Assembly: GCF_021730395.1 (NCBI RefSeq)
Contig: NC_069372.1
Coordinates: 62,911,754 to 62,975,753, forward strand
Length of the DNA: 64,000 nucleotides
Direction of reading: 5' to 3'
Source of the DNA: Mercenaria mercenaria
Lineage: Eukaryota
Shown here piece by piece: positions 15,431 through 61,207 of the stretch. The notes under the pieces are model-generated. The model saw only the letters and a list, made by a program, of their open reading frames with translations. It searched no databases and was not told the origin of the DNA. A program made the translations under genes and the position numbers. Position 1 is the stretch's first letter; each line of letters begins with the position of its first letter.

Positions 15431-16486
15431 AAAACAAGAGGGCCATGAAGGCCCTGTATCGCTCACCTGACCTATTGACCTAAAGATCATCAAGATAGTT
15501 TCATTAAGATATGGTCATAGATGTGGCCTCTAAAGTGTTAACTAACTTTTTCTTTGATTTGACCCGGTGACCTGGTTTTGACCCCACATGACCCAGATTC
15601 GAACTTGACCTAAAGATCATCAAGATTAACATTCTGACCAAGTTTCATTAAGATATGGTCATAAATGTGGCCTCTAGTGTTAACTAGCTTTTCCTTTGAT
15701 TTGACCTCGTGACCTAGTTTTTTACCCTATGTGACCTAGATTCAAACTGGACCTTGAGATCATCATGATTAACATTCCGACCAAGTTTCATGAAGATACA
15801 ATCATAAATGTGGCCTCTACAATGTTAACAAGCTTTTCCTTTGATTTGACCTGGTGACCTAGTTTTTGACCCCAGATGACCAAATATCAACCTCATCCAA
15901 GATTTATTCAGGGAAACATTCTGACAACGTTTCATTAAGACTGGGCCAAAATTGTGACCTCTAAGAGTGTTAACAAGCTTTTCCTTTGATTTGACCTGGT
16001 GACCTAGTTTTTGACCCCGGATGACCCAATAGCGAATTTGTCCAAGATTTTATTGAGGGTAACATTCTGACCAAGTTTCATTAAGATTGGATCAAAACTG
16101 TGACCTCTAGAGTGTTAACAAGCTTTTCCTATGATTTGACCTGGTGACCTAGTTTTTGACCCAAGATGACCCAATATCAAACTCATCCAAGATTTTATTG
16201 CGGTCAACATTCTGGCCAAGTTTCATTAAGATTGGGCCAAAATTGTGACCTCTAGAGTGTTAACAAGCTTTTCCTTTGATTTGACCTGGTGACCTAGTTT
16301 TTGATCCCAGATGACCCAATATCGAACTCGTTCAAAATTTTATTGAGGGTAACATTCTGACCAAGTTTCATTAAGATTGGGTCAAAATTGTGACCTCTAG
16401 TGTTAACAGTCAAATTGTTGACGACGGACACTGGGCGATCACAAAAGCTCACCTTGAGCACTTTGTGCTCAGGTGAGCTAAAAATT
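15431..16486 (+). mobile_element. Non-autonomous Helitron/Helentron-like element ('pearl'/HINE-like): 5' end AACAAGAGGGCCATGAAGGCCC..GCTCACCTG, internal ~155 bp satellite array (about 6 units), 3' end GACGACGGACACTGGGCGATCACAAAAGCTCACCTTGAGCACTTTGTGCTCAGGTGAGCTAAAAA
   Basis: The termini are conserved with seven other copies in the window. A terminal inverted repeat GCTCACCTG/CAGGTGAGC, a 5' palindrome GGCCATGAAGGCC and a 3' hairpin CACCTTGAGCACTTTGTGCTCAGGTG are present. Confidence 0.75.
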
Positions 16487-20394: not shown

Positions 20395-20635
20395 GAAATT
20401 ATAAATGAGCCGTGCCATGAGAAAACCAACATAATGGGTTTGCGACCAGCATGGATCCAGACCAGCCTGCGCACCCGCGCAGTCTGGTCAGGCTCCATGC
20501 TGTTCGCTTTTAAGCCTATTGGAATTGGAGAAACTGTTAGCGAACAGCATGGATCCTGACCAGACTGCGCGGATGATCCATGCTGGTCGCACACCCACTA
20601 TGTTGGTTTTCTCATGGCACGGCTCAAATGTTCAT
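20395..20635. mobile_element. Palindromic MITE/foldback element, same family as 13975-14205
   Basis: gagccgtgccatgagaaaaccaacataatgggtttgcgaccagcatggatccagaccagcctgcgcacccgcgcagtctggtcagg is mirrored by ...cctgaccagactgcgcggatgatccatgctggtcgcacacccactatgttggttttctcatggcacggctc. Confidence 0.8.
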
Positions 20636-23117: not shown

Positions 23118-25999
23118 CAAGAGGGCCAAGATGGCCCTAGGTCGCTCACCTGAGAAACACACCATAACACATCATAACAGTGTAAACATGTTTGACCTAG
23201 TGATTTCATGGAAAAAAATATTCTGGCAGTTATCATTAAAATTGGAGCTAAAATCTTGAGTATAAACAAGTATTTTCTTTGATTTGACCTAGTGACCTAG
23301 TTTTTAACCCCAGATGACCCATATTCGAACTTGACCTAGATTTCATCAAGGCTATCATTCCGATCATATTTCATGAAGATCAATTGAAAAATACAGCCTC
23401 TATCGCATACACGAGGTTTTTCTTTGATTTAACTTAGTGACCTACTTTTTGACCCAAGATGACCCATATTCAAATTCTACATAGATTTCATCAAGGGAAT
23501 CATTCTGACTTAATTTCAGGAAGATCAATTGAAAAATACAGCCTCTATCACTTACACAAGGTTTTTCTTTGATTTGACCTAGTGACCTACTTTTTGACCC
23601 CAAATGACCCATATTCGAACTTGAACTAGATTTTATCAAGGCAATCATTCTGACTTAATTTCAGGAAGATCAACTGAAATGTTTTTCTTTGATCTGACCT
23701 AGTGACCTAGTTTTTGATACCAGATGACCCATTTTCAAATGAAGCCTAGATTTCATTAAGGTTATCATTCTGACTTAATTTCAGGAAGATCAATTGAAAA
23801 ATACAGCCTCTATCGCATATACACAAGGTTTTTCTTTGATTTGAACTAGTGACCTACTTTTTGAACCAAGATTCGATCTTGACCTAGATTTCATCAAGGC
23901 AATCATTCTGGCGAAAATTCATGAAGATTAATTGAACAAGAGGGTCATGATGACCCTGGATTGCTCACCAGAATAATATGAGCTACATGTTTCAAATGTC
24001 AAACTGATGATTTTTAGAAATTTTTTGGAAGATTTTCCGATGTACAATCAAGTAACCCTGGGGAGGGGCCAATTTTACCCCGGGGGTCATGATTTGAACA
24101 AAGTTTGTAGAAGTCTACTAGGAAATGTTACATATCAAATATCTAAGATCTAGACCTTCTGGTTTTTTTTAGAAAATTTATGAAGATTTCCCTATGTACA
24201 ATCAAGTAACCCCTGGGGCTAGGTCAATTTGACCCTGGGGGTCAAGATTTAAACAACTTTTGTAGAGGTCCACTAGGCAATGCTACATGTCAAATATCTA
24301 AGCTCTAGGCCTTCTGGTTTATTTTTAGAAAATTTTGAAGATTTTTCTATGTACAATCAAGTAACCCCATGGGGCGGGGTCAATTTGGCCCTGGGGGTCA
24401 TGATTTGAACAAATTTTGTAGAAGTCTACTAGGCAATGCTACATGTCAAATATCTAAGATCTAGGCCTTCTGGTTTATTTTTAGAAAATTTTGAAGATTT
24501 TTCTATGTACAATCAAGTAACCCCATGGAGCGGGGTCAATTTGACCTGGGGGTCATGATTTGAACAAATTTTGTAGAAATCTATTAGGCAATGCTACACG
24601 TCAAATATCTAAGATCTAGGCCTTTTGGTTTATTTTTAGGAATTTTTTGAAGATTTTCCTATGTAAAATCAAGTGACCCCTGGGGCGGGGTCAATTTTGA
24701 CTCCGGGGGTCATGATTTGAACAAATTTTGTAGAGGTCCACTAGGCAATGCTACACGTGAAATATCTAAGCTCTAGGCCTTCTGGTTTATTTTTAGAAAA
24801 TTTTTGAAGATTTTCTATGTAAAATCAAGTGACCCCTGGGGCGGGGTCAATTTTGACCCCGGGGTCATGATTTGAACAACTTTAGTAACTTTAGCTCTAG
24901 GGCTTCTGGTTTTTGAGAAGAAGATTTTTTAAGATTTTTCTATGTAAAATCAAGTGACCCCTGGGGCGGGGTCAGTTTTGACCCCGGGGTCATGATTTGA
25001 ACAAAATTGGTAGAGGTCCACCAGGCAATGCTTCACACCAAATATCTAAGCTCTAGGGCTTCTGGTTTTTGAAAAGAAGATTTTTAAAGTTTTTCCTTTC
25101 GGTTGCCATGGCAACCAGAGTTCTGCATGGAATTCAATTCTTTGAACAATTTTTGTAGAGCTTCACCCAAGGAACATTCCTGTGAAGTTTGGATGAAATT
25201 TGCCAAGCGGTTTATGAGGAGATGTCGTTTGAAGTAAAAGTTTACGGACGACGGATGCCGGACGGTGACCCATCCTAATAGCTCACCCTGAGCCTTTGGC
25301 TCTGGTGAGCTAAAAATACAACCTCTATCGCATACACAAGGATTTTTTTAGATTTGACCTAGTGACCTAGTTTTTGATCCCAGATGACCCATTTTCGAAC
25401 TTGGCCTAGATTTCATCAAGGTTATCATTCTGACCAAATTTCATGAAGATCAGTTGAAAAATACAGCCTCTATCGCACACACAAGGTTTTTCTTTGATTT
25501 GACCTAGTGACCTATTTTTTGATCCCAGATGACCCATTTTTGAAATCGGCCTAGATTTTATCAAGATAATCATTCTGACCAAAATTCATGAAGATTAATT
25601 GAAAAATACAGCCTCTATCGCATACACAAGGTTTTTCTTTGATTTGATCTAGTGACCTACTTTTTGACCCCAGATGACCCATATTCGAACTTGACCTAGA
25701 TTTCATCAAAGCATTCATTCTGACCAAATTTCATGAAGATTAATTGAAAAATACAGCCTCTATTGTATACACAAGGTTTTTCTTTGATTTGACCTAGTTA
25801 CCTAGTTTTTGACCCCAGATAACCCATTTTCGAACTCGGCCTAGATTTCATCAAGGTAATGATTCTGACCAAATTTCACAAAGATCAGTTGAAAAATAAA
25901 GCCTCTATCGCATACACAAGCTAAATATTGACAGACGACAGACAGACAGACAGATAGACGCCGGAAGTCGGACATCAAGCGATCACAAAAAGGTGAGCT
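23118..25999 (+). mobile_element. Helentron-like element (outer copy) with a ~165 bp 'tgacctagtttttgacccc...catgaagatcaattgaaaaatacagcctctatcgcatacacaagg' array. It is interrupted by a nested copy at 23938-25320; its 3' end carries (GACA)n: acagacgacagacagacagacagatagacgccggaagtcggacatcaagcgatcacaaaaaggtgagctaaaaag
   Basis: 5' aaacaagagggccaagatggccctaggtcgctcacctgag. The same satellite type resumes after 25321 and ends at the conserved 3' terminus. Confidence 0.75.
23938..25320 (+). mobile_element. Nested Helentron-like element carrying a different ~165 bp satellite (gtaaccccatggggcggggtcaatttgaccctgggggtcatgatttgaacaaattttgtagaagtctactaggcaatgctacatgtcaaatatctaag)
   Basis: 5' aacaagagggtcatgatgaccctggattgctcacc; 3' ...gacggatgccggacggtgacccatcctaatagctcaccctgagcctttggctctggtgagctaaaaatac. 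The host unit ...catgaagattaattga|element|aaaaatacaacctctatcgc is split exactly by the insertion. Confidence 0.8.
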
Positions 26000-27835: not shown

Positions 27836-28545
27836 GACAAAATCACCCCCGCCTCCCATCCCCCTGTTTAATTTCACCACGGCAGACAAAATCCCCACTT
27901 TGATATTGTGGTTTAAAAAAAAACAAGAAATGCGGCAATGCCACGAAACCAGGTTTTCAACACTTTTCATAAGAATAAAAAAGTATACTGAATCACAGTG
28001 CACCACTTTAAAGCACAACCCTAACCCTAACCTAACCCTAACCCTATTTTTAGTAACAATGACCTTGACCTTGATCCCAGAAACCCCAAAATCAATCCCA
28101 AGCTACAACTTTATATAAGTTTTCTATACACCAAGTTTCATCATGATAGCTCATTCCTAAGTTAAGTTATTGACCGGAAACCCTATTTTAAGTAATAGTG
28201 ACCTTGACCTTGACCCCGGAAACCCCAAAATCAATCCCAGCCTTTGTCTTGATATAAGCTACATACATACCAAGTTTTATTCAAATATCTTTACCGAAAC
28301 AAAAGTTATTGACCGGAAACACCAGTTTGACGCCGCCCGCCCAACCAATGACATACCCCAATCTAATAAAATACAAGAAATTTAGAAGTCACAATTTTTT
28401 AAATATGATAATATCAAAAACTTTTAATTTGGAATGAAGTGAAAATCTGGAAATAATTGAAAATTATAAGGGGGGATTTTGTCCACCATAATCAAAATCA
28501 GCAAAGGTAATTTTTGTTGGAGAGGGTGGGGATTTTGTCCATATC
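27836..28545. mobile_element. TIR-bounded element: ~60 bp inverted termini with tandem GACAAAATCCCC motifs, flanking an interstitial telomeric repeat and two ~135 bp 'gaccttgaccttga' units
   Basis: The left end ...cccgcctcccatccccctgtttaatttcaccacggcagacaaaatcccc matches the reverse complement of the right end ggggggattttgtccaccataatcaaaatcagcaaaggtaatttttgttggagagggtggggattttgtcc. The same motif occurs at 51325-51350. Confidence 0.5.
28016..28046 (-). repeat. Interstitial telomeric repeat (CCCTAA)5, i.e. TTAGGG on the minus strand
   Basis: aaccctaaccctaacctaaccctaaccct. Confidence 0.9.
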
Positions 28546-29106: not shown

Positions 29107-30590
29107 AAGAGGGTCATGATGACCCTGGATCGCTCACCTGAGTAATATGAGCTACATGTTTCAAATGTCAAACTGATGATTTTTAAAAAGAAATTGGAAG
29201 ATTTTCCTATGTACAATCAAGTAACCCCTGGGGCGGGCCAATTTCACCCCGGGGGTCATGATTTGAACAAAGTTTGTAGAAGTCTACTAGGCAATGTTAC
29301 ATATCAAATATCTAAGATCTAGGCCTTCTGGTTTATTTTTAGCAAATTTATGAAGATTTCCCTATGTACAATCAAGTAACCCCTGGGGCTGGGTCAATTT
29401 GACCCTGGGGGTTCAAGATTTGAACAAATTTTGTAGAGGTCCATTAGGCAATGCTACATGTCAAATATCTAAGCTCTAGGCCTTCTGGTTTATTTTTAGA
29501 AAATTTTGAAGATTTTTCTATATACAATCAAGTAACCCCATGGGGCGGGGTCAATTTGACCCTGGGGGTCATGATTTTAACAAATTTTGTAGAAGTCTAC
29601 TAGGCAATGCTACATGTCAAATATCTAAGACCTATGCCTTCTAGTTTATTTTTAGAAAAATTTTGAAGATTTTCCTATGTAAAATCAAGTGACCCCTAGG
29701 GCGGGGTCATGATTTGAACAAATTTTGTAGAAGTCTACTAGGCAATGCTACATATTAAATATCTAAGCTCTAGGCCTTCTGGTTTATTTTTAGAAATTTT
29801 TTGAAGATTTTCCTATGTAAAATCAAGTGACCCCTGGGGCGGGGTCAATTTTGACCCAGGGGGTCAACAAATTGTGTAGAGGTCCACTAGGCAATGCTAC
29901 ATGTCAAATATCTAAGCTCTAGGCCTTCTGGTTTATTTTTTAAAATAACAAATTTTGTAGAGGTCCACTAGTCAATGCTACATGTCAAATATCTAAGCTC
30001 TAGGCCTTCTGGTTTATTTTTTAAAACATTTTGAAGATTTTCTTATATAAATCTATGTAAAATCAAGTGACCCCTGGGGCGGGGTCAATTTTGACCCCGG
30101 GGTTATGATTTGAACAACTTTAGTAGAGGTCCAATAGTCAATGCTACAAGTCAAATATCTAAGCTCTAGGGCTTCTGGTTTTTGAGAAGAAGATTTTTTA
30201 AGATTTTCCTATGTAAAATCAAGTGACCCCTGGGACAGGGTCAATTTTGACCCCGGGGTCATGATTTGAACAAATTTGGTAGAGGTCCACTAGGCAATGC
30301 TTCACACCAAATATCTAAGCTCTAGGGCTTCTGGTTTTTGACAAGAAGATTTTTAAAGGTTGAGTTCTGCATGGAATTCAATTCTTTGAACAATTTTTAA
30401 AGGGGGCCACCCAAGGATCATTCCTGTGATGTTTGGTGTAATTCTGCCCAGTGGTTTTCAAGAAGATTTTTTTAGAAATTGTTGACGGACGACGCACGAC
30501 TGACGATGCATGACGGACATCAAGCAGTCACAATAGCTCACCTTGTCACTTCGTGACAGGTGAGCTAAAAATTATTGAAAACCGGAGAAT
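29107..30590 (+). mobile_element. Helentron-like element, the same subfamily and satellite as 23938-25320
   Basis: 5' aacaagagggtcatgatgaccctggatcgctcacctgagtaatatgagctacatgtttcaaatgtcaaactgatgatttttaaaaag; 3' gacggacgacgcacgactgacgatgcatgacggacatcaagcagtcacaatagctcaccttgtcacttcgtgacaggtgagctaaaaatt. Confidence 0.8.
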
Positions 30591-31642: not shown

Positions 31643-32945
31643 CTGTATCTATGTGTTCCTGTGCTGCTTTTTGTTCAATTTTCCTGATCTCCAAGAGATT
31701 TGTTACATCTTTGAGACTATTGTTATCTTCGCCTAAAGCTTTTCCTTTGCTTTTCTTTGTTATTTCAGATTCAGGGTTGTTAGATTTGTTTCTATCCTTC
31801 ATTTTGGTCTTCTGTTCTTTGTTTAAATCATATCTTGACAATGAAGAACTCCTTGAACTTCTATGGAACCTAAACATCCTTGCTCTATCTCTTGATTGGC
31901 TTTTTGTGTATGTTCTTCTCCTTTGTATTCTTCTTCTTGGAGAGTTACTTCTGGATTTTCCAATAAATCTGTCTCTTGATCTTGCATACCTGTGTCTTGA
32001 TGTTCTTGGTGACAAACTTCTTGATCTTCTATGAAAAATACTTACTGGAGATCTTATTGATCTTCTTGGAGACCTACTTCTTAATCTTCTTGGAGACCTA
32101 CTTCTTAATCTTCTTGGAGATCTACTTCTTGATCTTCTCATAAATCTACTTCTTAATCTTCTTGGAGATCTACTTTTTGATCTCCTCTGAGATATACTTC
32201 TTGATCTTCTCATAAATCTACTTCTTAATCTTCTTCTTGATCTTCTCATAAATCTACTTCTTGAACTTCTCAGAGATCTAATTCTTGATCTTCTCAGAGA
32301 CCTACTTCTTGATCTTCTCAGAGACCTACTTCTAGATCTTCTCAGAGACCTACTTCTTGACCTTCTCCATGACCTACTTCTTGATCTTCTCGGAGACCCA
32401 CTTCTTGATCTTATCGGAGACCCACTCCTTGACCTTTTCAGAGACCTACTTCTTGACCTTCTCCGCGACCTACTTCTTGATCTTCTCGGAGACCCACTTC
32501 TTGATCTTCTCAGAGACCCACTTCTTGATCTTCTCAGAGACCCACTTCTTGATCTTATCGGAGACCCACTTCTTGATCTTTTCGGAGACCTACTTCTTGA
32601 CCTTCTCCGCGACCTACTTCTTGATCTTCTCGGAGACCCACTTCTTGATCTTCTCAGAGACCCACTTCTTGATCTTCTCAGAGACCTACTTCTTGATCTT
32701 CTCGGAGACCCACTTCTTGATCTTCTTAGAGACCCACTTCTTGATCTTCTCGGAGACCTACTTCTTGATCTTCTTAGAGACCCACTTCTTGATCTTCTCG
32801 GAGACCTACTTCTTGACCTTCCGCTAGACCTACTTCCTGATCTTCTAAAAGACCCACTTCTTGATCTTCTGAGAGACCTATTTCTTGATCGTCTCAGAGA
32901 CAAACTTCTTGATCTTCTATGTGACATACTGCTTGATCTTTTCAA
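31643..32945 (-). CDS. Probable continuation of the same RS domain ([22 protein letters not shown]...) ending ...[17 protein letters not shown] at a donor ACAG|gtaaag (31641-31642). It is separated from the upstream ORF by a frameshift within a ~570 bp tandem duplication.
   Basis: Track ORF 31569-32945. The same 60-aa block ([40 protein letters not shown]...) occurs in both ORFs. The DNA segment 32360-33000 is duplicated at 32930-33600. Confidence 0.55.
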
Positions 32946-33083
32946 AGACCCACTTCTTGATCTTCTTGGAAGCCTCCATCTTGATCTTCTTGGGGACCTA
33001 CTTCTTGATCTTCTTGGGGACCTACTTCTTGATCTTCTAGAGATCTACTTCTTGATCTTCTCGGAGACCCACTTCTTGATCTT

Positions 33084-36000
33084 TCAGAGACCCACTTCTT
33101 GATCTTTCAGAGACCCACTTCTTGATCTTTCGCGACCACTTCTTGATCTTTTCGGAGACCTACTTCTTGACCATTCTGCCGCAAACCTACTTCTTGATCT
33201 TCTCGGAGACCCACTTCTTGATCTTCTCAGAGACCCACTTCTTGATCTTCTCGGAGACCCACTTCTTGATCTTCTCAGAGACCCACTTCTTGATCTTCTC
33301 AGAGACCCACTTCTTGATCTTCTCGGAGACCCACTTCTTGATCTTCTTAGAGACCCACTTCTTGATCTTCTCGGAGACCTACTTCTTGACCTTCCGCTAG
33401 ACCTACTTCCTGATCTTCTAAAAGACCCACTTCTTGATCTTCTGAGAGACCTATTTCTTGATCGTCTCAGAGACAAACTTCTTGATCTTCTATGTGACAT
33501 ACTGCTTGATCTTTTCAAAGACCCACTTCTTGATCTTCTTGGAAGCCTCCATCTTGATCTTCTTGGGGACCTACTTCTTGATCTTCTTGGGGACCTACTT
33601 CTTGATCTTCTAAGAGATCTACTTCTTGATCTTGAAGACTTACTTCTTGATCTTCTCAGAGTGTTACTTCTTGATCTTCTTGCAAATCTACTTCTTGATC
33701 TTCTCAGAGACCTACTTCTTGATCTTCTTGGAGACTTTGATCTTGATATTCTAACAGACTTTCTTCTTGATCTTCTTTTAGGAGATTTACTTGCTGACTT
33801 CAAAAATGTCTTTGCTTTATTCCTTTTCAATGGTAGGGTGATTTTATTTTTTACAAAGTCTTTTGACTTTGTTTGTATTTTAGTTAAGCATACCTGATGA
33901 CTCCGACATCTTGCCATTTCGAAATCTGATTCATTTACCAACGAAGTATTCATAGAATAAGAGTATCCAGATGGTTCGGAAAAAGAGAAGGGTGTGTCTT
34001 CATTGATTTGTTTTGTTGAGTCAAATACATGACCTGTCTGTTTACCTCTCATTTGATCTGAGGACTGCATTTGTTCTACATACGTTTTCCTAAAATGATC
34101 ACTTCTCTCTGGGGAGACAGCAGCCTTTCTATAATGCTTAGGACTATCATCAAATGTCTCCATTTCTGCTTCAGCTTGGTGGCAAATTAGTGGTTCTGGT
34201 GCTCTATGGTTGAAACGAGGAAGAAGTTTAGCACGTTTTTTTGCTAAGTTTGGCGGAAGCATGTCTGGGTCAAAATCCGGTGCATAGTATTTGGATAATG
34301 TTTGGGTGTGCTGATAGCCTTCTGTTGATAATTTCTGTATTGTAGAACTATCAAATGCTGGACTGTCACCACTAGGTAAAGTTTGACTACAATCTTGTGC
34401 CATTTCACTATAATGAGGTGAAGTTGGGCTATAATGTGGTGAAGATGGGCTATAATGCGGTGAAGTTGGGCTATAATGTGGTGAAGTTGGGCTATAATGC
34501 GGTGAAGTTGGGCTATAACTTTGAGCAAGTGAGTTATAACTAAATGTAACAATTGGGTTATAACTTGAAACAACTGGCTCATAATTTGGAGCAACTGGGC
34601 TATAACTTGGAGCAATTGGGTTATAACTTGGAGCAAATGGATTATAACTTGAAGCAACTGGCTTATAACTTGTGGCAATTGGGTTATAACTTGAAGCAAC
34701 TGGGCTATAACTCGGAGCAGCTGGGTTATAACTTGGAGCTGTTGGGTTATAACTTGGAGCTGTCTGCTGGTAAGATTCTAACACAGATACTTCATTCAAA
34801 CTGGATTTAACATCACCTTCTTGTGTTGGTGCTACAAATGGCAATTTCTCAGCTGTATAGACTTCTTCCTCTTCATCCTCACAATAATCCTCTTCTTGGT
34901 CATCACAATAGTCTAGTAATTCATCAAATACTTGTGCTTTGTTTTCATGAATTTCTTTATCATCTTTATCCTTTCTCATTTTTTCCATTATTGGTCCATC
35001 AAAGGGTTGATTTGTCTCAGTTTCAGATTCAGAACACTCTAAAGGAACGGAAATATGTTCTGCAACAGGTGCACTCTTTCTTGCTGCCCAAGTTGCTAGA
35101 AGCTTTCCTGATGCAGGATAATTCTTTTTCTTCAGTCCTACTGACTCAGATATTGGTGAATGTCTTAAATCAGTTTGCAAAGAAGTGCCAGAAAATAAAC
35201 GCTGACTTTCACTCAGCTCTATCTCTGTCTTGGAATCAGAAGCCCAAGTTTGAAGTTCTGGTTCAACACAGAGGGATGATGATTTAACAGTAGTGCCCAT
35301 CATCAGAGTATCATTATAACTTAGAGGAATGTCCATTAATGCTAAATCTTCTTCACTTTCAGAGTCTGGTATGTTCACGACCTTTCTATGTCGCTTAGCT
35401 CCCCCTTTTCCAAGACCTTTACCACCTTTACCGCCTCTGCTTGTCCCAGACATGGACATATGCTGAGATCCCCCTTTTCCTATCCCTTTTCCTCCCCTTC
35501 CTCTCCCTGATACACCAGAGCCACCACTGGCACTCCTTATCCCTTTTCCTCCCCTAACTGTGCTTGATAAAGGCTGGACAGAAGCATCAATAGAAGCAGT
35601 TGAAGTAATATTATTAAATAAAAGATCAGGACTATTAGTATTACTGGCACTACGATCCCTATCTCTGTCTGTGTCACACATCTTTTTTCTTTTCTTTTTC
35701 AATTCTCTATCGGAATTGCTAGATGATGATTCTGAACAACTATCATCTTCATCTTCTTCAGAGCCAGAACTAGAACTACTACTGCTAGAACTACCATGTA
35801 TTCGCTCTATTTCACCAGTAGATGGGGCACTTTTTCGTGCTGCCTTTGTTGCTATTTGCTTTCCAGATGAACCTGTCTGTGAAGTCAATCTAGTTTTTGG
35901 ATCAAATATAGCTGTTGAATAATCTAGATACTTTTCAGTTCCTTTTCCGTTTGTGTCCCATCCTAAAGCATCCTCTAGTGCATTGTCAGAGAATAAATCA

Positions 36001-36133
36001 TCCTCTTCCAGCAGGGGAATTTCAGAGGCTTCTTTTAACGACATTTCCAATATATCTATATCCATATCAGAGATATTAATTTCTGGAGGCATTAAGCAAG
36101 GCATTTCAACATCTTCCATCAAACTTTTGTCAC
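33084..36133 (-). CDS. EF-hand/CTD-heptad/RS gene, giant exon (about 1016 codons): acidic N-terminal part, two histone H4-tail-like segments ([32 protein letters not shown]), SYNPxAP and YSPTSPH heptad arrays, then the RS domain. The frame is lost at 33084-33130 by 1-2 bp indels inside the 24-bp repeat.
   Basis: Track ORF 33084-36122 (TTG start). Acceptor ttttcacag|GTGACAAAAGTTTGATGGAAG lies 14 nt upstream, and G+GT keeps the frame from exon 39597-39695 (...PSEEQGDKSLMEDVEMPC). Confidence 0.75.
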
Positions 36134-36642
36134 CTGTGAAAATATTAACGTAACACTATATGTTTTATTTTTTGAACAAATTTATTTCTCCTGTTTACTG
36201 TATTTCAGTCCTACTGTCACAAAACTTAAGTCAGCGTAATAATGGTATCAATTTACTTATAGATATTTTTCACTGTAAGTTGGTCATAAATCTGTAAAGT
36301 TTAATTATACTGACCTCTTTTCAATTATACGCAAAATTGATATAAGAAAACTACTCACCAAAATTTGAAAATAGATCTACATCAATACTTTTTGAAATTA
36401 ATTACCCATGGTAAAAACAAAAGTTGACCTCATAGGAATGATTGACCAAGTTGTAACCTATATGATATGGATTGGACAGGGAAAAACCCTACTGACCTTT
36501 GATCTCAGTGTGATCCTGAGAATGAGCTAGGGATCTGCGTGTTGGGCATGACAAGTTGCCTCATTCTAGGAAACATTTGTGCCAAAAAATATTAAAATCC
36601 CTCAACAGATGGCAGATTTATGAACCACACAGGAAAAAAGAA

Positions 36643-38215
36643 ACAAGAGGACCATGATGGTCCTGAATCGCTCACCTGTCCCCACATGAACTGAGTATGA
36701 TGTCGTTTTTTCTATTATTTGACATAGTGACCTAGTTTTTGAGCTCATGTGACCTAGTTCTGAACTTGACCTAGATATCATCAAGATAAAAATTCTGACC
36801 AATTTTCATGAAGATCCATTGAAAAATATGGCCTCTAGAGAGGTCACAAGGTTTTGCTATTATTTTACATAATGACCTAGTTTTTAAAGACACGTGACCC
36901 AGTTTTGTACTTGACATAGATATCATCAAGGTGAACATTCTCACCAATTTTCATGAAGATCTCATGAAAAATATGGCCCCCAGAGAGGTCACAAGGTTTT
37001 TCTATTTATAGACCTACTGACCTAGTTTTTGAACGCATGTGACCCAGTTCAAAATTTGACCTAGATATCATCAAGGTGAACATTCTCACCAATTTTCATG
37101 AAGATCCATTGAAAAATATGGCCTCTAGAGAGGTCAAAATGTTTTTCTATGTTTAGACCTAGTGACCTAGTTTTTGACCACAGTTGACCCGGTTTCAAAT
37201 TTGACCTAGATATCATCAAAATGAACATTCAGACCAACTTTCATACAGATCCCATGAAAAATATGGCCTCTAGAGTTGTCACAAGGTTTTTCTATTATTT
37301 GACCTACTGACCTAGTTTTTGACCGCATGTGACCCAGTTTCAAACTTGACCTAGATATTATCAAGATGAACATTCTGACCAATTTTCGTGCAGATCCTAT
37401 GAAAAATATGACCTCTAGAGAGGTCACAAGGTTTTTCTATTATTTGACCTACTGACCTAGTTTTGGACCGGACGTGACCCATTTTCAAAGCTGATCTAGA
37501 TATCACCAAGATGAACATTCTGACCAATTTTCATGCAGATCCCATGAAAAATATGACCTCTAGAGAGGTCACAAGGATTTTCTATTATTTGACCTACTGA
37601 CCTAGTTTTTGACTGCAGTTGTTCCAGTTTCAAACCTGACCTAGATATCATCAAGATGAACATTCTGATCAATTTTCATGCAGATATCATGAAAAATACG
37701 GCCTCTACAGAGGTCACAAGGTTACAAATCCCAGTTTCGAACTTGACCTAGATATCATCAAGATAAACATTCTGACCAATTTTCATGAAGATCCCATGAA
37801 AAATATGACCTCTAGAGAGGTCACAAGGATTTTCTATTATTTGACCTACTGACCTAGTTTTTGACCGCAGTTGACCCAGTTTCAAACTTGACTCAGATAT
37901 CATCAAGGTAAACATTCTCACCAATTTTCATGAAGATCCATTGAAAAATATGGCCTCTAGAGAGGTCACAAGGTTTTTCTATTTTTAGACCTACTGACCT
38001 AGATTTTGACTGCATGTGACCCAGTTTCAAACTTGACCTAGATATCATCAAGGTGAACATTCTGACCAACTTTCATAAAGATCCCATGAAAAATGTGACC
38101 TCTAGAGTGGTCACAAGCAAAAGTTTACGCACGGACAGATGGACGGACAGACGACGGACGCTGCGCGATCACAAAAGCTCAACTTGTCACTATGTGACAG
38201 GTGAGCTAAAAACTT
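36643..38215 (+). mobile_element. Helentron-like element with a ~165 bp 'gacctagatatcatcaagatgaacattctgaccaattttcatgaagatcccatgaaaaatatggcctctagagaggtcacaagg' array, inserted into a different ~190 bp satellite (36420-36640 and 38216-39140), all inside an intron of the EF-hand/RS gene
   Basis: 5' aaacaagaggaccatgatggtcctgaatcgctcacctg; 3' gtttacgcacggacagatggacggacagacgacggacgctgcgcgatcacaaaagctcaacttgtcactatgtgacaggtgagctaaaaactt. Confidence 0.8.
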
Positions 38216-39872: not shown

Positions 39873-41333
39873 AGGGCCCTGAAGGCTAAATATTGCTAAC
39901 CTGACCTAGTTATTACCCCAGTCAACCTAGTATTTAATTTGACCTATACTTCACAGACAAACCTTAACACTTGGGGTCATCATGTAATTATAATTAAACA
40001 GTCTAGGAAATATGATCTGATAATTTTTTAAGTATTTTTTCCTATATAACTCATATAACAAGTAACCCCCGGGCAGGGCCTCTTTTCACCCCAGGGGCAT
40101 AATTTGAACAATCTTGTTAGAGATCCACTAGGAAATGCTACATACCAAATATCAAAGGCTGAGGCCTTGAACCTTGAGACAAGAAGATTTTTAAAGTTTT
40201 TCCTATATAAGTCTATGCTAAACTTGCGACCCCCAGGGCAGGGCCTCTTTCCACCCCAGAGAAATAAATTTGAACAAGAGCTATCACTAATGGTGACAAA
40301 TGCCCCCGCAGCACCTTGACCTTTGACCTGGTGACCTTGACCTTTGACCTGGTGACCCCAAAGTCAGTAGGGGTCGTGTACTCAATAAGTACTATCAGCA
40401 TGTGAAGTAAACGTTAACATTGTAACGAATGAACGAACGGACAGACAGTTGAAAACTAATATGCCTCCCTTGGGGGCATAAAAATTTTGGTAGAGGAACA
40501 CTAGGCAATGCAGCATACCAAATATCAAAAGCCTATGCCTTGCAGTTTCAGGCAAGAAGATTTTTAAAGTTTTTTCCTATATAAGTCTATGTAAAACTTG
40601 AGAACCCCTTGGTGGGGCCTCTTTTCAACTCAGGGGCATAATTTGAATAATCTTGGTAGAGGACCACTGGGCAATGCTACATACCAAATATCAAAAGCCT
40701 AGGTCTTGCAGTTTCAGACAAGAAGACTTTTAAAGTTTTTTCCTATATAAGTCTATGTAAAACTTGAGACCCTCCGGGGCAAGGCCTCTTTTCATCCCAG
40801 GTTAATAATTTGAACAATCTTGGTAGAGGACCACAAGGCAATGCTTCATATCAAATATCAAAGGCCTAGGTCTTGTGGTTTCAGACAAGAAGATTTTTAA
40901 AGTTTTTTCCTAAATAAGTCAATGTAAAACTTGGGACCCCCAGGGTGGGGCCTCTTTTCACCCCAAGGGCACAATTTGAACAAACTTCATAGAGGACCAT
41001 TAGATGATGTCACTTGCTAAATATCAAGACTCTATGCATTGTGGTTTTTGATAAGAAGATTTTTAGAGTTTTTCCTTTCGGTTGCCATGGCAACCAGAGT
41101 TCTGCATTGGATTCAATTCTTTGAACAATTTTGAAAGAGGGTCACCCAAGGATCATTCCTGTAAAGTTTGGTGTTATTCTGCCCAGTGGTTTTCAAGAAG
41201 AAGATTTTTTTAGAAAATGTTGACGGACGGATGATGCATGACGGAGGACTGACAATGGACATTGAGCGGTCACAAAAGCTCACCATGAGCCTTTGGCTCA
41301 GGTGAGGTAAAAAGTGACTTCTTATGTGTAAAC
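39873..41333 (+). mobile_element. Helentron-like element (satellite of the 17262-18470 type) that contains a small nested element of a second family at 40286-40468
   Basis: 5' acaagagggccctgaaggctaaatattgctaacctg; 3' gacggacggatgatgcatgacggaggactgacaatggacattgagcggtcacaaaagctcaccatgagcctttggctcaggtgaggtaaaaagtg. Confidence 0.7.
40286..40468 (+). mobile_element. Small nested element of a second Helentron-like family (5' AACAAGAGCTATCACTAATGGTGACAAATGCCCCC; 3' gaacgaacggacagacag...aatatgcctcccttgggggcataaaaatt)
   Basis: It splits a satellite unit of the host. The same 5' end is found at 45161 and 45379; the 3' palindrome is tatgcctcccttgggggcata. Confidence 0.6.
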
Positions 41334-42189: not shown

Positions 42190-43620
42190 CTCTTGATTGA
42201 CTGCCATGCACCCTATCTCCTGAGATAACCAGATGGGCTCTATCTCCTGAGACAACCTGACATATCTTATGTCCTGAAATCACTAGATGGACTCCTATCT
42301 CCTGAGATAACTGGATGTGCCCTATCTCCTGAGATAACCAGATGGGCTCTATCTCCTGAGATAACCTGACATGCCTTATGTCCTGAAATCACTAGATGGA
42401 CTCCTATCTCCTGAGATAACTGGATGTGCCCTATCTCCTGAGATAACCAGATGGGCTCTATCTCCTGAGATAACCTGACATGCCTTATGTCCTGAAATCA
42501 CCAGATGGACTCCTATCTCCTGAGATAATCAGATGGACTCCAACCTCCTGAGATAACCAGTTGCCCTATCTCCTGAGATAACAAGATGAACTCCTACTTA
42601 CTGAGTTAACCGAATGTGCCCTATCTCTTGAGATAACCAGATGTACCATATCTGGTACCCTATCTCCTGAGATAACCAGTTTGACCCTATCTCCTGAGAT
42701 AACCTGATATGCCTTAATATGTCCCGAGGTCACTAGATGGGCCCTTTCTCCTGAGATAACCAGATGGACTCCTATCTCCTGAGATAATCAGGTGGACTCC
42801 TATCTCCTGAGATAATCAGGTGGACTCCTATCTCCTGAGATAACCTGATATGCCTTAATATGTCCCGAGGTCACTAGATGGGCCCTTTCTCCTGAGATAA
42901 CCAGATGGACTCCTATCTCCTGAGATAATCAGATGGACTCCTATCTCCTGAGATAACCAGATGGACTCCTATCTCCTGTGATAACCAGATGGACTCCTAT
43001 CTCATGAGATAATCAGGTGGACTCATCTCCTGAGATAACCAGATGGACTCCTATCTCCTGAGATAATCAGATAGACTCCTATCTCCTGAGATAACCAGAT
43101 GGACTCCTATCTCCTGAGATAACCAGATGGACTCCTATCTCCTGAGATAATCAGATGGACTCCTATCTCCTGAGATAACCAGATGGACTCCTATCTCCTG
43201 AGATAATCAGGTGGACTCCTATCTCCTGAGATAACCTGATATGCCTTATGTCCTGAGATAACCAAATGTGCCCTATCTCCTGAGATAACCAGATGGACTC
43301 CTATCTTCTGAGTTAACTGAATGTACACTATCATTTGAGATAATCAGATTTACCTTATCTGGTAACCTATCTCCTGAGGTAACCAGATTGACCCTATCCC
43401 CTAAGATAACCTGATATGCCTTTATGTCCTGAGATCACTAGATGGGCCCTATCTCCTGAGATAACCAGATGGTCTCCTATCTCCCGAGATAATCAGATGT
43501 GCCTTATCTCCTGAGGTAACCAAATGGCCCTATCTCTCCAGATAACCAGATTCACAAAATCTCCCAAGATAACTAGATAAGCTCCTATCTCCAGAGATAA
43601 CAAGATGGGCTCCTATATGG
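42190..43620. repeat. 28-29 bp minisatellite, about 48 units (cctatctcctgagataaccagatggactc), lying in an intron of the EF-hand/RS gene
   Basis: Read directly; the near-palindromic core is tatctcctgagata. Confidence 0.9.
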
Positions 43621-61130: not shown

Positions 61131-61207
61131 TCCTCTGCTTGGACCATGGAGTAACTTTCTTGTATCTCCCCCTTCCGTAAAATTTCCCTCACTAAAGCTT
61201 TTGGATC
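61067..61207 (-). CDS. Exon D: DPKALVREILRKGEIQESYSMVQAEEAYTGLSEFIEDIKSDSDTLEL (141 nt). Its last 36 nt plus the first ~48 nt of the following intron are the founder of the adjacent 84-bp satellite.
   Basis: Acceptor tgtttcattttag|GATCCAAAAGC and donor TTAGAATTG|gtaagtactag; it overlaps track ORF 60992-61192. Confidence 0.6.

What the first reader, a model, noticed from the sequence alone, without database searches (positions are those of the whole stretch)
34290..34800. RNA polymerase II CTD-like heptad arrays (YSPTSPH x5 and SYNPxAP x~12) inside the RS protein
Minus-strand translation gives ...APSYNPTAPSYNPAAPSYSPVASSYNPIATSYKPVASSYNPFAPSYNPIAPSYSPVAPNYEPVVSSYNPIV...[47 protein letters not shown] differs from the Pol II CTD consensus YSPTSPS only at position 7. 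The DNA shows the matching 21-bp periodicity (ggtgaagttgggctataatgc repeats). This is a CTD mimic next to an RS domain in a protein that is not RPB1: I found no polymerase domains in the 14 kb locus.
Basis: partly seen in the sequence, partly recalled or inferred. Interest (0 to 1): 0.8.

Follow-up and report, generated by a model that had tools for sequence, protein, structure and literature searches.

The report
Clam protein copying histone and polymerase tails
The polymerase-like seven-residue repeats are real and lie in one giant exon of an unannotated hard-clam gene that also carries near-exact copies of the histone H3 and H4 tails. The gene belongs to a conserved, undescribed family of fully disordered "tail-mosaic" proteins that probably engage the enzymes and readers acting on chromatin and RNA polymerase II.

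Summary
Observation confirmed. On the minus strand, 34407-34754, one 1,023-codon open frame encodes 10 degenerate heptads (SYNPxAP type) followed by 5 near-consensus heptads (4x YSPTSPH, 1x YSPSSPH). Pfam RNA_pol_Rpb1_R scores 26.9 bits against a cut-off of 20.3. There is no RPB1 body anywhere in the window.

- The same exon holds histone H3 K18-G33 (14/16 identical), a second ARKSAP site, and two H4-tail copies (one 18/19 identical to G4-L22), then a >230-residue RS domain.
- AlphaFold gives mean pLDDT 41, so the protein is essentially all disordered.
- The window is from Mercenaria mercenaria. No protein in the 15-billion-sequence collection contains this exon.

Fourteen unnamed relatives share the same collinear motif order, and every one keeps CTD-type heptads (1-15 copies). 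Between lineages dN/dS is 0.25-0.47 overall. It is 0.08-0.24 on the histone-like blocks and 0.77 on the heptads.

Some relatives carry K9M/I/Y/C/R or K27M-type substitutions, FG repeats, a SNAP-25 SNARE motif, further H3 exons and possibly a splice into SPT6.

Best reading: a multivalent tail mimic acting as pseudo-substrate or ligand platform. The function is inferred, not shown. No transcript evidence was obtainable.

The parts
31643..36133 (-). Giant internal exon (about 4.5 kb). It holds everything below.
   Evidence: The acceptor is ttttcacag|GT, with AG at 36135-36134. The first ATG is at 36119. The donor is ACAG|GTAAAG, with GT at 31642-31641, leaving the exon in phase 1. Relatives have the same layout: an acceptor just before the first ATG and a donor just before the ORF stop.
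33087..36119 (-). Uninterrupted ORF of 1,011 codons from ATG (MEDVEMPCL...) to the first in-frame stop (TGA 33086-33084).
   Evidence: The only Pfam match is PF05001. AlphaFold2 with the 15-sequence alignment gives mean pLDDT 41.3, with 858 of 1,011 residues below 50.
35997..36104 (-). Conserved N-terminal block MPCLMPPEINISDMDIDILEMSLKEASEIPLLEEDD. It contains the only confidently predicted helix.
   Evidence: P[CA]LxPPE is present in 13 of the 14 relatives and is absent from P0002, whose exon begins after this block. The helix spans aa 18-32 with pLDDT 88-95.
35889..35909 (-). IFDPKTR motif.
   Evidence: FDPK[ST]R is conserved in the window, P0011, P0100, P0101, P0102, P0096, P0099 and P0109.
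35811..35867 (-). Histone H3 tail copy 1: SGKQIATKAARKSAPSTGE. It matches H3 K18-G33 at 14 of 16 positions (L20I, A31S).
   Evidence: ATKAARK is invariant in all 15 family members, and S97 (H3 S28) is nearly invariant. In relatives this block has dN/dS 0.08 at dS 0.44.
35709..35795 (-). Poly-Ser / acidic tract (GSSSSSSSSSGSEEDEDD...).
   Evidence: Acidic tracts follow each histone-like block in all relatives.
35679..35702 (-). LKKKRKKM, a classical-NLS-like basic cluster.
   Evidence: Read from the sequence only. Its function is inferred.
35460..35510 (-). Histone H4 tail copy A: SGRGRGGKGIGKGGSQH. It matches H4 1-14 with K5R and L10I, and has Q at the K16 position.
35376..35441 (-). Histone H4 tail copy B: SRGGKGGKGLGKGGAKRHRKVV. 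It matches H4 G4-L22 at 18 of 19 positions, retaining K5, K8, K12, K16 and K20.
   Evidence: Local alignment. tblastn gives 94.7% identity over 19 residues, E 7e-8. The best PDB matches are histone H4 chains, E 2.4e-5.
35043..35108 (-). Second H3K27-like site: GKLLATWAARKSAPVAEHISVP.
   Evidence: [WY][AG]A[RC][KR]S[AG]P[VI]AE[HRQ]I is found in all 15 members. Several of its columns are invariant in A5. dN/dS is 0.24.
34530..34754 (-). Ten degenerate CTD-type heptads (Y-[NSKE]-P-x-[AV]-[PST]-x) plus an irregular spacer. Ser2 is mostly Asn. Ser5 is always Ala or Val.
34407..34520 (-). Five near-consensus CTD heptads: YSPTSPH x4 and YSPSSPH x1.
   Evidence: The units differ mainly at the synonymous third base of Pro6.
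34251..34295 (-). SKYYAPDFDPDMLPP motif.
   Evidence: KYFAPDFDP occurs in P0002 and FAPDF in P0096 and P0099.
33930..33971 (-). SGYSYSMNTSLVNE, aligned with the relatives' YEYKSNANLVLQ block.
   Evidence: The alignment here is weak.
33087..33785 (-). RS domain, first part (RRSRSRSP / RRSRSGSL units of 24, 48 and 72 bp).
   Evidence: No RRM or other domain is found.
33045..33130 (-). Patch where single-base losses put the RS repeat out of register. It contains two in-frame stops (TGA 33086-33084, TAG 33047-33045).
   Evidence: It could be an assembly error, an allele or a true C-terminus, and this is unresolved.
31838..33044 (-). RS domain, second part. It is in the same absolute frame as the first part. 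It begins with a duplicate, at least 270 nt long, of RS sequence found about 573 nt upstream.

Best explanation
The heptads are a genuine, translated, CTD-type repeat module. They are not an isolated curiosity. They are one module of a conserved, wholly disordered 'tail-mosaic' protein.

In Mercenaria mercenaria one giant exon strings together, in order:
- a short conserved helix;
- a copy of histone H3 K18-G33;
- acidic and Ser-rich spacers and a basic cluster;
- two copies of the histone H4 tail;
- a second ARKSAP site;
- 10 heptads that cannot be phosphorylated at positions 2 and 5 (mostly Asn2, always Ala/Val5);
- 5 phosphorylatable near-consensus heptads;
- an RS domain of more than 230 residues.

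Most likely mechanism (inferred). The protein is nuclear, through the RS domain and the KKKRKK cluster. It presents these linear motifs to the same writers, erasers and readers that act on real H3/H4 tails and on the Pol II CTD. Candidates are CTD kinases and phosphatases, basophilic Ser kinases and 14-3-3 on R-x-S-x-P, lysine acetyl- and methyl-transferases, and SRPK/CLK on the RS domain. It would then work as a multivalent pseudo-substrate or ligand platform that either titrates these factors or concentrates them.

Shown here: the sequence identity to the tails, the collinear conservation in 15 proteins, purifying selection concentrated on the histone-like blocks, the rapid turnover of heptad number, and the absence of any fold.

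Not shown: expression, localisation, modification, binding, and the direction of the effect (decoy versus scaffold).
For: Heptads.

Histone copies:
- H4 G4-L22 is 18/19 identical and H3 K18-G33 is 14/16 identical.
- The only PDB sequence matches listed (best 60 of 177) are H4 and H3 chains or peptides, apart from one GFP-SUMO1 fusion construct.
- In the 5.8-billion-protein search, hits other than RPB1 and the two family members were mis-merged H3+H4 gene models. The query therefore resembles both tails at once.

Family:
- A profile search returned 12 unnamed proteins at 229-674 bits, then a clean gap to histone models at 92 bits or less.
- All members show the same motif order, and every member has SPSYSPTSP-type heptads at the same place, 1-15 copies.

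Selection:
- dN/dS between lineages is 0.25-0.47 for the exon.
- By block it is 0.08 (H3 copy), 0.12 (HRKV), 0.24 (WAAR[KR]S), 0.77 (heptads) and 0.64 (FG).
- dS inside the H3 copy (0.44) is like the rest of the exon. The identity is therefore maintained by selection, not by recent copying from a histone gene.

Disorder: mean pLDDT 41.3. There are no Pfam domains in any member except PF05001 and Nucleoporin_FG.

Substitutions at modifiable residues in relatives:
- TARMST, TARYST, TARCST, TARIST and TARRST at the K9 position, and FARMSAP at a K27-like site.
- These resemble K-to-M inhibitors such as EZHIP (doi 10.1101/585729).
- Ala5 heptads recall the CTD-analogue repressor PIE-1 (PMC2748068, plus my own knowledge of its YAPMAPT motif).
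Against: - No transcript or protein evidence. None of the 12 exact-sequence variants tried (the full ORF, four shorter starts within it, two ORFs from the second RS part, and others) is in the 15-billion-protein collection. No database protein contains this exon. Another gene in the window, syntaxin-1A-like XP_045173690.2, is present, so RefSeq apparently has no protein model for this gene.
- The RS array contains two in-frame stops.
- The heptad block evolves almost neutrally between two relatives (dN/dS 0.77), and two copies within one assembly differ at dN/dS 0.89.
- Across all K27-like copies the constant is R-x-S-[AG]-P, while the lysine varies (K/R/M/E/C). Lysine methylation may therefore not be the selected property.
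- A SNAP-25 SNARE motif in the relatives does not fit a purely chromatin/transcription mimic.
Confidence: 0.5

Rival explanations
1. The protein is a cis-acting regulatory extension of an elongation factor. The mosaic would be the 5' part of a gene that continues into SPT6, a histone chaperone that binds phosphorylated Pol II. The histone-like and CTD-like segments would act as intramolecular pseudo-ligands that gate SPT6's acidic histone-binding region and its phospho-CTD-binding domain.
For: - In two relatives (L001, L005) an exon matching Pfam SPT6_acidic lies 2-3 kb beyond the H3(24-53)-like exon on the same strand. It scores 31.5 bits against a cut-off of 24.4 in L001, and 16.4 bits in L005.
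- That exon has no in-frame ATG, and its acceptor is in the phase (1) left by the previous exon in both loci.
- The upstream exon, big exon and H3(24-53) exon are phase-compatible in L004.
- The window's big exon also ends in phase 1.
Against: - No SPT6-like, H3(33-53)-like or SNAP-25-like exon exists anywhere in the 64-kb window.
- Only the acidic N-terminus of SPT6 was seen, with no SPT6 core, because the loci end.
- In L001 the SPT6-like reading frame is interrupted.
- Phase agreement has a 1-in-3 chance per junction.
- No database SPT6 protein carrying these motifs surfaced, though that search is lossy.
Confidence: 0.12
2. The protein is an immune decoy or 'tripwire'. It would be a bait made of copies of highly conserved host targets of pathogen effectors and proteases (histone tails, Pol II CTD, FG nucleoporins, SNAP-25, SR regions). 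It would either soak these effectors up or report their activity.
For: - The set of copied segments in the relatives is heterogeneous: H3, H4, CTD, FG repeats and a SNAP-25 Qc SNARE motif at E 6.6e-10. A chromatin-only function does not explain that set.
- All copied proteins are extremely conserved, which is what a decoy needs.
- From my own knowledge, bivalves have expanded innate immunity, and SNAP-25 family proteins, Nups and H3 are known protease targets.
Against: - No signalling or immune domain was found in any exon examined.
- The SNAP-25 piece is absent from the window.
- The idea rests on recalled biology, not on a test.
- The RS domain and SPT6 linkage point to the nucleus.
Confidence: 0.08
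3. The protein is a nuclear-transport signal mosaic or karyopherin sponge. H3 and H4 tails, RS domains, RGG stretches and basic clusters are all import signals, and FG repeats bind transport receptors. The protein would then be a cargo mimic, or a buffer of importins.
For: - The architecture combines H3/H4 tails, RGG, an RS or FG domain, and KKKRKK.
- Histone tails acting as import signals, and RS domains as transportin-SR signals, is established knowledge (the review PMC7752055 surfaced; I did not read it in detail).
Against: - It does not explain the conservation of CTD heptads, of the HRKV (H4K20) block, or of the exact H3 K18-G33 sequence.
- The window protein has no FG dipeptide at all.
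Confidence: 0.07
4. The heptads are only a drifting coding minisatellite in a low-complexity linker. They are Ser/Pro/Tyr-rich spacer with no CTD-related function, and their similarity to the CTD is incidental to composition.
For: - The arrays are 21-bp tandem repeats with 93% and 80% unit identity, so they are recent expansions.
- Copy number ranges from 1 to 15.
- dN/dS is 0.77 in this block.
- Only 2 of 15 members reach the Pfam threshold.
Against: - Every member, at about 30% overall identity, keeps at least one or two exact SYSPTSP units at the same position, between the RGG/H4-like block and the C-terminal block.
- Tyr1 and Pro3 are invariant in all 51 heptads tabulated from the window, P0002 and seven representative FG-type members.
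- They co-occur with copies of other regulatory tails.
Confidence: 0.12
5. The locus is non-functional in this clam. It would be a decaying or never-expressed copy, a chimeric relic of captured gene fragments, with the long ORF surviving by chance or by recency.
For: - No protein model and no exact match exist in the collection.
- There are two in-frame stops in the RS array.
- The flanks are dense in repeats.
- Duplicated copies in one relative assembly differ at dN/dS 0.89.
Against: - A 1,023-codon stop-free frame in 36-41% G+C DNA is not expected by chance.
- Canonical splice sites bound the exon, as in relatives.
- All family motifs are intact in the window copy.
- Between-lineage dN/dS is well below 1, and lowest on the motifs.
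Confidence: 0.1

Closest known systems
RNA polymerase II largest subunit (RPB1) C-terminal domain, Pfam PF05001
   Same: Both have tandem Y-S-P-T-S-P-x heptads. Five units differ from the consensus only at position 7 (His). The Pfam score is above the gathering threshold.
   Different: - There is no polymerase body in the ORF or the window.
- There are only 15 heptads, and they are internal rather than C-terminal.
- Ten of them have Asn/Lys/Glu at position 2 in most units and Ala/Val at position 5, so they cannot carry Ser5 phosphorylation and mostly not Ser2 phosphorylation.
Core histones H3 and H4 (N-terminal tails)
   Same: H3 K18-G33 is 14/16 identical, and H4 G4-L22 is 18/19 identical with K5, K8, K12, K16 and K20 retained. 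Relatives carry up to H3 2-35 in the big exon and H3 24-53 in the next exon.
   Different: - No histone fold exists in any locus.
- The tails are internal, so there is no free N-terminus.
- They are flanked by acidic tracts.
- Several copies in relatives replace K9 or K27 with M, I, Y, C, R or E.
Known histone-tail mimics: EZHIP (a K27M-like PRC2 inhibitor; doi 10.1101/585729) and SARS-CoV-2 ORF8 with its ARKSAP motif (doi 10.1101/2021.11.10.468057; disputed in PMC10833455). From my own knowledge also G9a ARKT, JARID2 K116 and influenza NS1.
   Same: An ARKS(A)P-type linear motif sits in a non-histone, disordered context. Relatives have natural K-to-M versions (FARMSAP, TARMST) like EZHIP.
   Different: - Known mimics copy 4-10 residues of one site. 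This family copies 16-35 residues, of two different histones, several times, together with CTD heptads.
- The window copy keeps Lys at both K27-like sites.
- No relationship by descent to any of these proteins was detected.
PIE-1 (C. elegans) and Pgc (Drosophila), germline repressors that block P-TEFb (PMC2748068). From my own knowledge, PIE-1 uses a non-phosphorylatable CTD-like heptad, YAPMAPT.
   Same: The window has CTD-like heptads with non-phosphorylatable residues at positions 2 and 5 (YNPxAPS), in a non-polymerase protein.
   Different: - There are no CCCH zinc fingers.
- The window has ten such heptads in tandem, plus five phosphorylatable ones.
- No evidence exists for cyclin T binding or germline expression.
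SR-related proteins (SRRM1/2, SON) and SR-related CTD-associated factors (SCAFs)
   Same: A long Arg/Ser dipeptide domain without an RRM.
   Different: From my own knowledge, SCAFs bind the CTD through a CTD-interaction domain. Pfam finds no domain other than PF05001 in this protein, which carries CTD-like sequence instead. In most relatives the RS domain is replaced by N-terminal FG repeats.
FG nucleoporins (Pfam PF13634)
   Same: Twelve relatives have 15-28 FG dipeptides in an N-terminal GFSFG/FGAP-type region. P0101 matches Nucleoporin_FG at E 8e-11.
   Different: The window protein has no FG dipeptide, and no FG-rich exon exists on its strand. No nucleoporin structural domain is found in any member.

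Membership tests
RPB1 (Pol II largest subunit) | Tandem YSPTSPS-type heptads recognised by PF05001 | tested here: met
   26.9 bits against a gathering score of 20.3.
RPB1 (Pol II largest subunit) | Polymerase domains (RNA_pol_Rpb1_1 to _7) N-terminal to the repeats | tested here: not met
   Pfam finds none in the ORF. tblastn with RPB1 fragment P0001 hits only the heptad exon in the 64 kb.
Core histone H3/H4 | Histone fold (PF00125) | tested here: not met
   No PF00125 match in any member. tblastn with full-length H3 and H4 aligns only tail residues.
Core histone H3/H4 | Canonical N-terminal tail sequence | tested here: met
   H4 is 18/19 identical and H3 is 14/16 identical.
Classical SR splicing factors | One or two RRMs plus a C-terminal RS domain | tested here: not met
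   The RS domain is present. No RRM is found.
SR-related CTD-associated factors (SCAF) | CTD-interaction domain (CID) | tested here: not met
   No Pfam domain other than PF05001.
PIE-1-type CTD-analogue repressors | Heptad with non-phosphorylatable residues at positions 2 and 5 | tested here: met
   All 10 degenerate heptads have Ala or Val at position 5, and 8 of 10 lack Ser at position 2.
PIE-1-type CTD-analogue repressors | CCCH zinc fingers; binding of cyclin T / inhibition of P-TEFb | tested here: not met
   No zinc finger is found. Binding cannot be tested with these tools.
K-to-M histone mimics (EZHIP-like) | Met (or Ile) in place of the target lysine in an H3-like motif | tested here: not met
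   The window keeps Lys in both ARKSAP sites. The feature is met in relatives only: P0109 FARMSAP, P0096 TARMST, and L006 TARIST.
FG nucleoporins | FG-repeat region | tested here: not met
   The window ORF has 0 FG dipeptides and there is no FG exon. The feature is met in 12 relatives.
New 'tail-mosaic' family (defined here) | Collinear set: P[CA]LxPPE helix, FDPK, ATKAARKS (H3), H4-like GKG/HRKV, [WY]xAR[KR]S[AG]P[VI]AExI, SYSPTSP heptads, and APDF / YxYxSN block, all within one giant exon | tested here: met
   All blocks are present in order in the window. The profile search separates the family (229 bits or more) from everything else (92 bits or less).
New 'tail-mosaic' family (defined here) | Expression as a protein | not testable with these tools
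   No transcript data are available. The exact ORF variants tried are not on record.

The most novel reading that the evidence does not exclude
Animals (at least bivalves) encode a previously unrecognised class of 'tail-mosaic' proteins. These are conserved, fully disordered proteins that concatenate near-exact copies of the regulatory tails of H3, H4 and RNA polymerase II. In relatives they also carry FG repeats, a SNAP-25 SNARE motif and an SPT6 N-terminus. They include naturally occurring K9M/K9I/K27M-type and Ser5-to-Ala substitutions.

Such a protein would act as a genome-encoded, dosage-dependent competitive inhibitor or buffer of chromatin writers and CTD kinases. It would be an endogenous counterpart of oncohistones, EZHIP and PIE-1 combined. 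Global transcriptional or chromatin quiescence would be one possible use.
Probability: 0.2. Interest if true: 0.92.

Novelty: new variant of a known kind. Interest (0 to 1): 0.78.

Why it matters
Molecular mimicry of a histone tail or of the CTD is known only as single short motifs in a handful of proteins, such as EZHIP, viral mimics and PIE-1. Here a cellular gene family keeps 16-35-residue copies of two histone tails plus CTD heptads under purifying selection. Some members carry the same Lys-to-Met type changes that make oncohistones dominant inhibitors.

If the protein is expressed:
- It offers a natural experiment on how cells buffer or redirect the enzymes that write and read the histone and CTD codes.
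- It may link that buffering to SPT6.
- It warns that antibodies against H3K27, H3S28, H4K5-K20 and CTD epitopes can have a non-histone, non-polymerase target in molluscs.

It also shows that a conserved 3-kb coding exon can be missing from a RefSeq annotation.

Tried and rejected
- Motif-only profile search (A2). It returned nothing. A local hmmsearch showed the profile scores P0011 at 132 bits and P0002 at 101 bits. The failure was therefore in the word-index candidate step. The search tool is lossy: P0011 was also missing. Absence of NCBI-named relatives is therefore weak evidence.
- Exhaustive phmmer with a chimeric non-repeat query. It gave only one new member (P0096). Single-sequence sensitivity is too low for such short blocks.
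- Exact look-ups of 12 ORF variants. None is on record, so no transcript contigs could be fetched.
- Viral origin. No relative was found in IMG/VR.
- JGI metagenomes. The two 'relatives' returned are ordinary H3 genes.
- Hunt for extra exons in the window. tblastn and regex searches for FG, SNAP-25, H3(1-20), H3(33-53), SPT6, SRWD and heptads found nothing outside 33000-36200. The 'DPDQTAR' hits are a repeat element.
- ULM reading of the relatives' SRWD motif. The PDB sequence search found nothing, so this remains a recollection only.
- PDB search with the SPT6-like exon found nothing. Pfam did match it.
- A short GT-AG intron that would remove the out-of-frame RS patch. Candidate sites give lengths of 51, 74 or 82 nt. 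Only the 51-nt option keeps the frame, and that is implausibly short. I rejected this as unsupported.
- Fold search. I did not run one, because the model is disordered.
- Literature searches found no description of such a protein. PIE-1's primary paper is not held.


Full report
**1. The observation**

Ten in-register degenerate heptads come first: SYNPTAP, SYNPAAP, SYSPVAS, SYNPIAT, SYKPVAS, SYNPFAP, SYNPIAP, SYSPVAP, NYEPVVS, SYNPIVT. They occupy 34545-34754. An eight-residue irregular spacer follows. Then come YSPTSPH x4 and YSPSSPH x1, at 34407-34520.

Tandem Repeats Finder reports the two 21-bp arrays. One has 5.3 copies at 93% identity. The other has 11.9 copies at 80% identity.

The pattern YxPxxPx occurs 10 times, against a mean of 0.15 in shuffles of the ORF. 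Pfam's Rpb1 C-terminal repeat model scores 26.9 bits, above its 20.3-bit cut-off. The peptide count of the degenerate array is 10 rather than about 12. One canonical unit has Ser at position 4.

**2. The gene**

The heptads lie in a 1,023-codon stop-free frame (33087-36155, minus strand) in DNA of 36-41% G+C.

- A canonical acceptor (ttttcacag|GT, AG at 36135-36134) precedes the first ATG (36119) by 14 nt.
- The RS repeat loses register for about 85 nt (33130-33045), which creates two in-frame stops. It then resumes in the same absolute frame and runs to a canonical donor (ACAG|GTAAAG, GT at 31642-31641, phase 1).
- The unit is therefore one giant internal exon of about 4.5 kb. Whether the stops are real is unresolved.
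- The heptads lie upstream of the stops and are unaffected either way.

The window comes from the hard clam Mercenaria mercenaria. The intronless ORF at 53196-54107(+) is exactly RefSeq XP_045173690.2, annotated syntaxin-1A-like. In contrast, no protein in the collection contains the big exon. RefSeq apparently has no protein model for it.

**3. What else is in the ORF**

- Residues 85-103 read SGKQIATKAARKSAPSTGE, which matches histone H3 K18-G33 at 14 of 16 positions.
- Residues 227-248 read SRGGKGGKGLGKGGAKRHRKVV, which matches histone H4 G4-L22 at 18 of 19 positions. All five acetylatable or methylatable lysines are retained.
- Residues 204-220 are a second H4-like copy, SGRGRGGKGIGKGGSQH.
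- Residues 338-359 hold a second ARKSAP site, WAARKSAPVAEHISVP.

Two independent tools see these similarities. A PDB sequence search lists H4 and H3 chains and peptides (E from 2.4e-5), apart from one GFP-SUMO1 fusion construct. In the 5.8-billion-protein search, the significant hits other than RPB1 and the two family members were mis-merged H3+H4 gene models, which match both tails at once.

Pfam finds no fold. AlphaFold2 with the family alignment gives mean pLDDT 41.3. The only confident element is a helix at residues 18-32.

**4. The family**

Two unnamed proteins (P0002, P0011) share the whole mosaic collinearly. An exhaustive phmmer search added P0096. A profile of four sequences returned 12 members at 229-674 bits. 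There was then a clean gap down to histone gene models at 92 bits or less.

All 14 relatives are ORFs called on unannotated ENA or Logan contigs from at least seven assemblies. Their loci share interspersed repeats at 70-78% identity with the clam window. This is consistent with molluscan hosts but does not prove it.

The motif order is constant:
1. FG repeats in 12 members, none in the window.
2. P[CA]LxPPE helix.
3. FDPK.
4. H3 copy 1 (ATKAARK invariant, S28 nearly so).
5. Acidic tract.
6. H3K27-like copy 2.
7. GPSIVHRKVFG (H4 18-21).
8. [WY]xAR[KR]S[AG]PVAEHI.
9. RGG, or RGRGGKGGKGLGKGGQKRE (H4 3-17).
10. SYSPTSP heptads.
11. SRWD.
12. APDF.
13. YEYKSNANLVLQ.

The window and P0002 end in an RS domain instead. 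Every member has heptads at the same position. There are 1-6 in FG-type members, 10 in P0002 and 15 in the window. Tyr1 and Pro3 are invariant in all 51 heptads tabulated from the window, P0002 and seven representative FG-type members.

**5. Selection**

Codon alignments of the big exon between lineages give dN/dS of 0.25-0.47. For P0011 against P0101, the values by block are:
- H3 copy: 0.08
- HRKV block: 0.12
- WAARRS block: 0.24
- C-terminal block: 0.24
- FG region: 0.64
- Heptads: 0.77

Synonymous divergence inside the H3 copy (0.44) is like that elsewhere in the exon. The identity to H3 is therefore held by selection on the protein and not by recent copying from a histone gene.

The heptad module is always present, but its number and sequence turn over quickly. 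The 93%-identical 21-bp units in the window point to recent slippage or unequal exchange.

Two copies within one assembly (P0011 and P0100, dS 0.04) differ at dN/dS 0.89. That comparison is uninformative, or it reflects relaxed constraint on a recent duplicate or haplotype.

**6. Substitutions at the modifiable residues**

In relatives the H3K9 position reads M, Y, C, I or R (TARMST, TARYST, TARCST, TARIST, TARRST). One K27-like site reads FARMSAP and another reads SRESAP.

Across all K27-like copies the constant is R-x-S-[AG]-P, while the lysine varies. From my own knowledge, this fits a phospho-serine or 14-3-3-type motif (H3S28ph is a known 14-3-3 ligand) at least as well as it fits lysine methylation.

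In the window, both K27-like sites keep Lys. The ten degenerate heptads have Ala or Val at position 5, and most have Asn at position 2. The five distal heptads remain phosphorylatable.

**7. Larger genes in the relatives (followed up only in part)**

All big exons are bounded by an acceptor just before the first ATG and by a donor just before the ORF's stop. The database 'proteins' are therefore internal exons.

Upstream exon:
- In L004 and L003 an upstream exon encodes a SNAP-25 C-terminal SNARE motif, with PDB phmmer E 6.6e-10.
- H3(1-20)-like repeats follow it in the same exon.
- It splices in phase into the big exon.

Downstream exon:
- The next exon downstream reads [28 protein letters not shown] in L004, which is H3 24-53-like, and is again in phase. 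Other loci carry close variants such as [29 protein letters not shown] (L006).

SPT6-like exon:
- In L001 and L005, an exon 2-3 kb further on matches Pfam SPT6_acidic. It scores 31.5 bits against a 24.4-bit cut-off in L001, and 16.4 bits in L005.
- It has no in-frame ATG, and its acceptor is in the right phase in both loci.
- The mosaic may therefore be a 5' extension of, or spliced to, SPT6.

None of these extra exons exists in the 64-kb window.

**8. Interpretation**

The best-supported account is that the heptads are one module of a disordered, multivalent tail mimic. The protein would present H3-, H4- and CTD-type linear motifs to the enzymes and readers of the real tails. An RS domain (or FG repeats in relatives) would set its location. 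I put this at about 0.5.

The direction of the effect (decoy or scaffold) and even expression remain open. The rivals are:
- a cis-regulatory extension of SPT6;
- an immune decoy;
- a transport-signal mosaic;
- a merely drifting coding minisatellite;
- a dead locus in this clam.

**9. Comparison with what is known**

The array meets the Pfam definition of the Rpb1 repeat, but it fails every other RPB1 criterion. It has histone tails but no histone fold. It has an RS domain but no RRM or CID.

It resembles EZHIP-type and viral histone mimics (doi 10.1101/585729; doi 10.1101/2021.11.10.468057, disputed in PMC10833455) and the PIE-1 CTD analogue (PMC2748068). It differs from them in three ways. 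It copies far longer stretches. It copies several different tails. It does so in a conserved cellular family.

Three literature searches found no description of such a protein. I rate it a new variant of a known kind (linear-motif mimicry). There is a real chance that it is something categorically new.

Noticed in passing
window 35811-35867, 35460-35510, 35376-35441, 35043-35108 (minus strand): The ORF that holds the heptads also holds near-exact copies of the histone H3 (K18-G33) and H4 (1-22) tails, plus a second ARKSAP site.
   Followed up: yes
window 33045-33130 and 31838-33785 (minus strand): The RS array loses register for about 85 nt, which creates two in-frame stops (TGA 33086-33084, TAG 33047-33045). 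It then resumes in the same absolute frame. A stretch of at least 270 nt of RS sequence is duplicated at about 573-nt spacing. This could be an assembly error, an allele or a true C-terminus.
   Followed up: partly
window 31643-36133: No protein in the 15-billion-sequence collection contains this exon. A neighbouring gene of the same window is present there as a RefSeq protein. The exon therefore seems to be unannotated in the Mercenaria mercenaria RefSeq protein set.
   Followed up: partly
window 53196-54107 (+): An intronless syntaxin-1A-like gene (SNARE and Syntaxin Pfam domains) is identical to XP_045173690.2. This match identified the organism. It is curious that relatives of the mosaic gene carry a SNAP-25 SNARE motif in an upstream exon, while here a SNARE gene lies 17 kb upstream on the other strand. 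This may be coincidence.
   Followed up: partly
L004 5038-5532; L003 5286-5759; L006 3352-3684; L008 2150-2479; L009 3090-3437; L001 825-1025: Upstream exons of the FG-type relatives encode a SNAP-25 C-terminal SNARE motif (L003 and L004; PDB E 6.6e-10). All of them encode two or three H3(1-20)-like repeats in which K9 is K, R, I or Q.
   Followed up: partly
L001 13160-13264; L003 13201-13359; L004 9105-9200; L005 12611-12715; L006 11647-11733; L008 11271-11357; L009 11400-11492; L011 5950-6051: The exon after the big exon encodes A[SA][20 protein letters not shown][VI]ALREIRR. This matches histone H3 24-53 (the K36 region and the start of the alpha-N helix). It is in splice phase with the big exon in L004. 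No histone fold follows within the fetched DNA.
   Followed up: partly
L001 about 16030-16460; L005 14441-14647: An exon matching Pfam SPT6_acidic lies 2-3 kb downstream on the same strand. It has no in-frame ATG, and its acceptor is in the phase left by the previous exon. The mosaic may be spliced to SPT6. In L001 the frame is interrupted.
   Followed up: partly
P0096/P0099 (TARMST), P0103-P0108 (TARYST, TARCST), P0109 aa 486 (FARMSAP), P0002 aa 66 (SRESAP): Natural Lys-to-Met/Ile/Tyr/Cys/Arg/Glu substitutions occur at the K9- and K27-equivalent positions. R-x-S-[AG]-P stays constant across all K27-like copies.
   Followed up: partly
P0101 aa 815, P0102 aa 969, P0109 aa 694 and 710, P0103-P0108, P0099 aa 849: A conserved [RS]RWD motif follows basic residues and precedes T/S-P. 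It resembles, from memory, the UHM-ligand motifs of SF3B1. A PDB sequence search gave no hit. The motif is absent from the window protein.
   Followed up: partly
window 35997-36104 (aa 6-41): The only confidently predicted structure is a short helix (aa 18-32, pLDDT 88-95) in the conserved P[CA]LxPPE...LEEDD block. It is probably a docking motif for an unknown partner.
   Followed up: no
window 20402-20508, 25141-25320, 30096-30497, 40086-41313 against L001, L004, L005, L006, L007: Interspersed repeats are shared at 69-79% identity between the clam window and the ENA loci. This suggests the unnamed relatives also come from molluscs.
   Followed up: partly
window 2086-4311 (+): A 742-codon open frame with a reverse-transcriptase domain (RVT_1, E 1e-38). 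It is a retroelement.
   Followed up: partly
window 28017-28046; 42212-43616; 57600-61200; 36707-38117; 29197-30358: Several repeats: an interstitial (AACCCT)5 telomere-type repeat; a 28-bp satellite of about 51 copies; a long tandem array (period not measured) that gives repeated ORFs on both strands; and 145-bp and 157-bp tandem repeats flanking the gene.
   Followed up: no
L001 and L003 (both from assembly ERZ25069866); L006 and L008 (both from ERZ25073814): Two copies of the gene per assembly lie on different contigs of equal coverage. P0011 and P0100 are 93% identical, with a 5.3-kb homologous block at 95%. They could be haplotypes of a highly heterozygous host or recent paralogues.
   Followed up: partly
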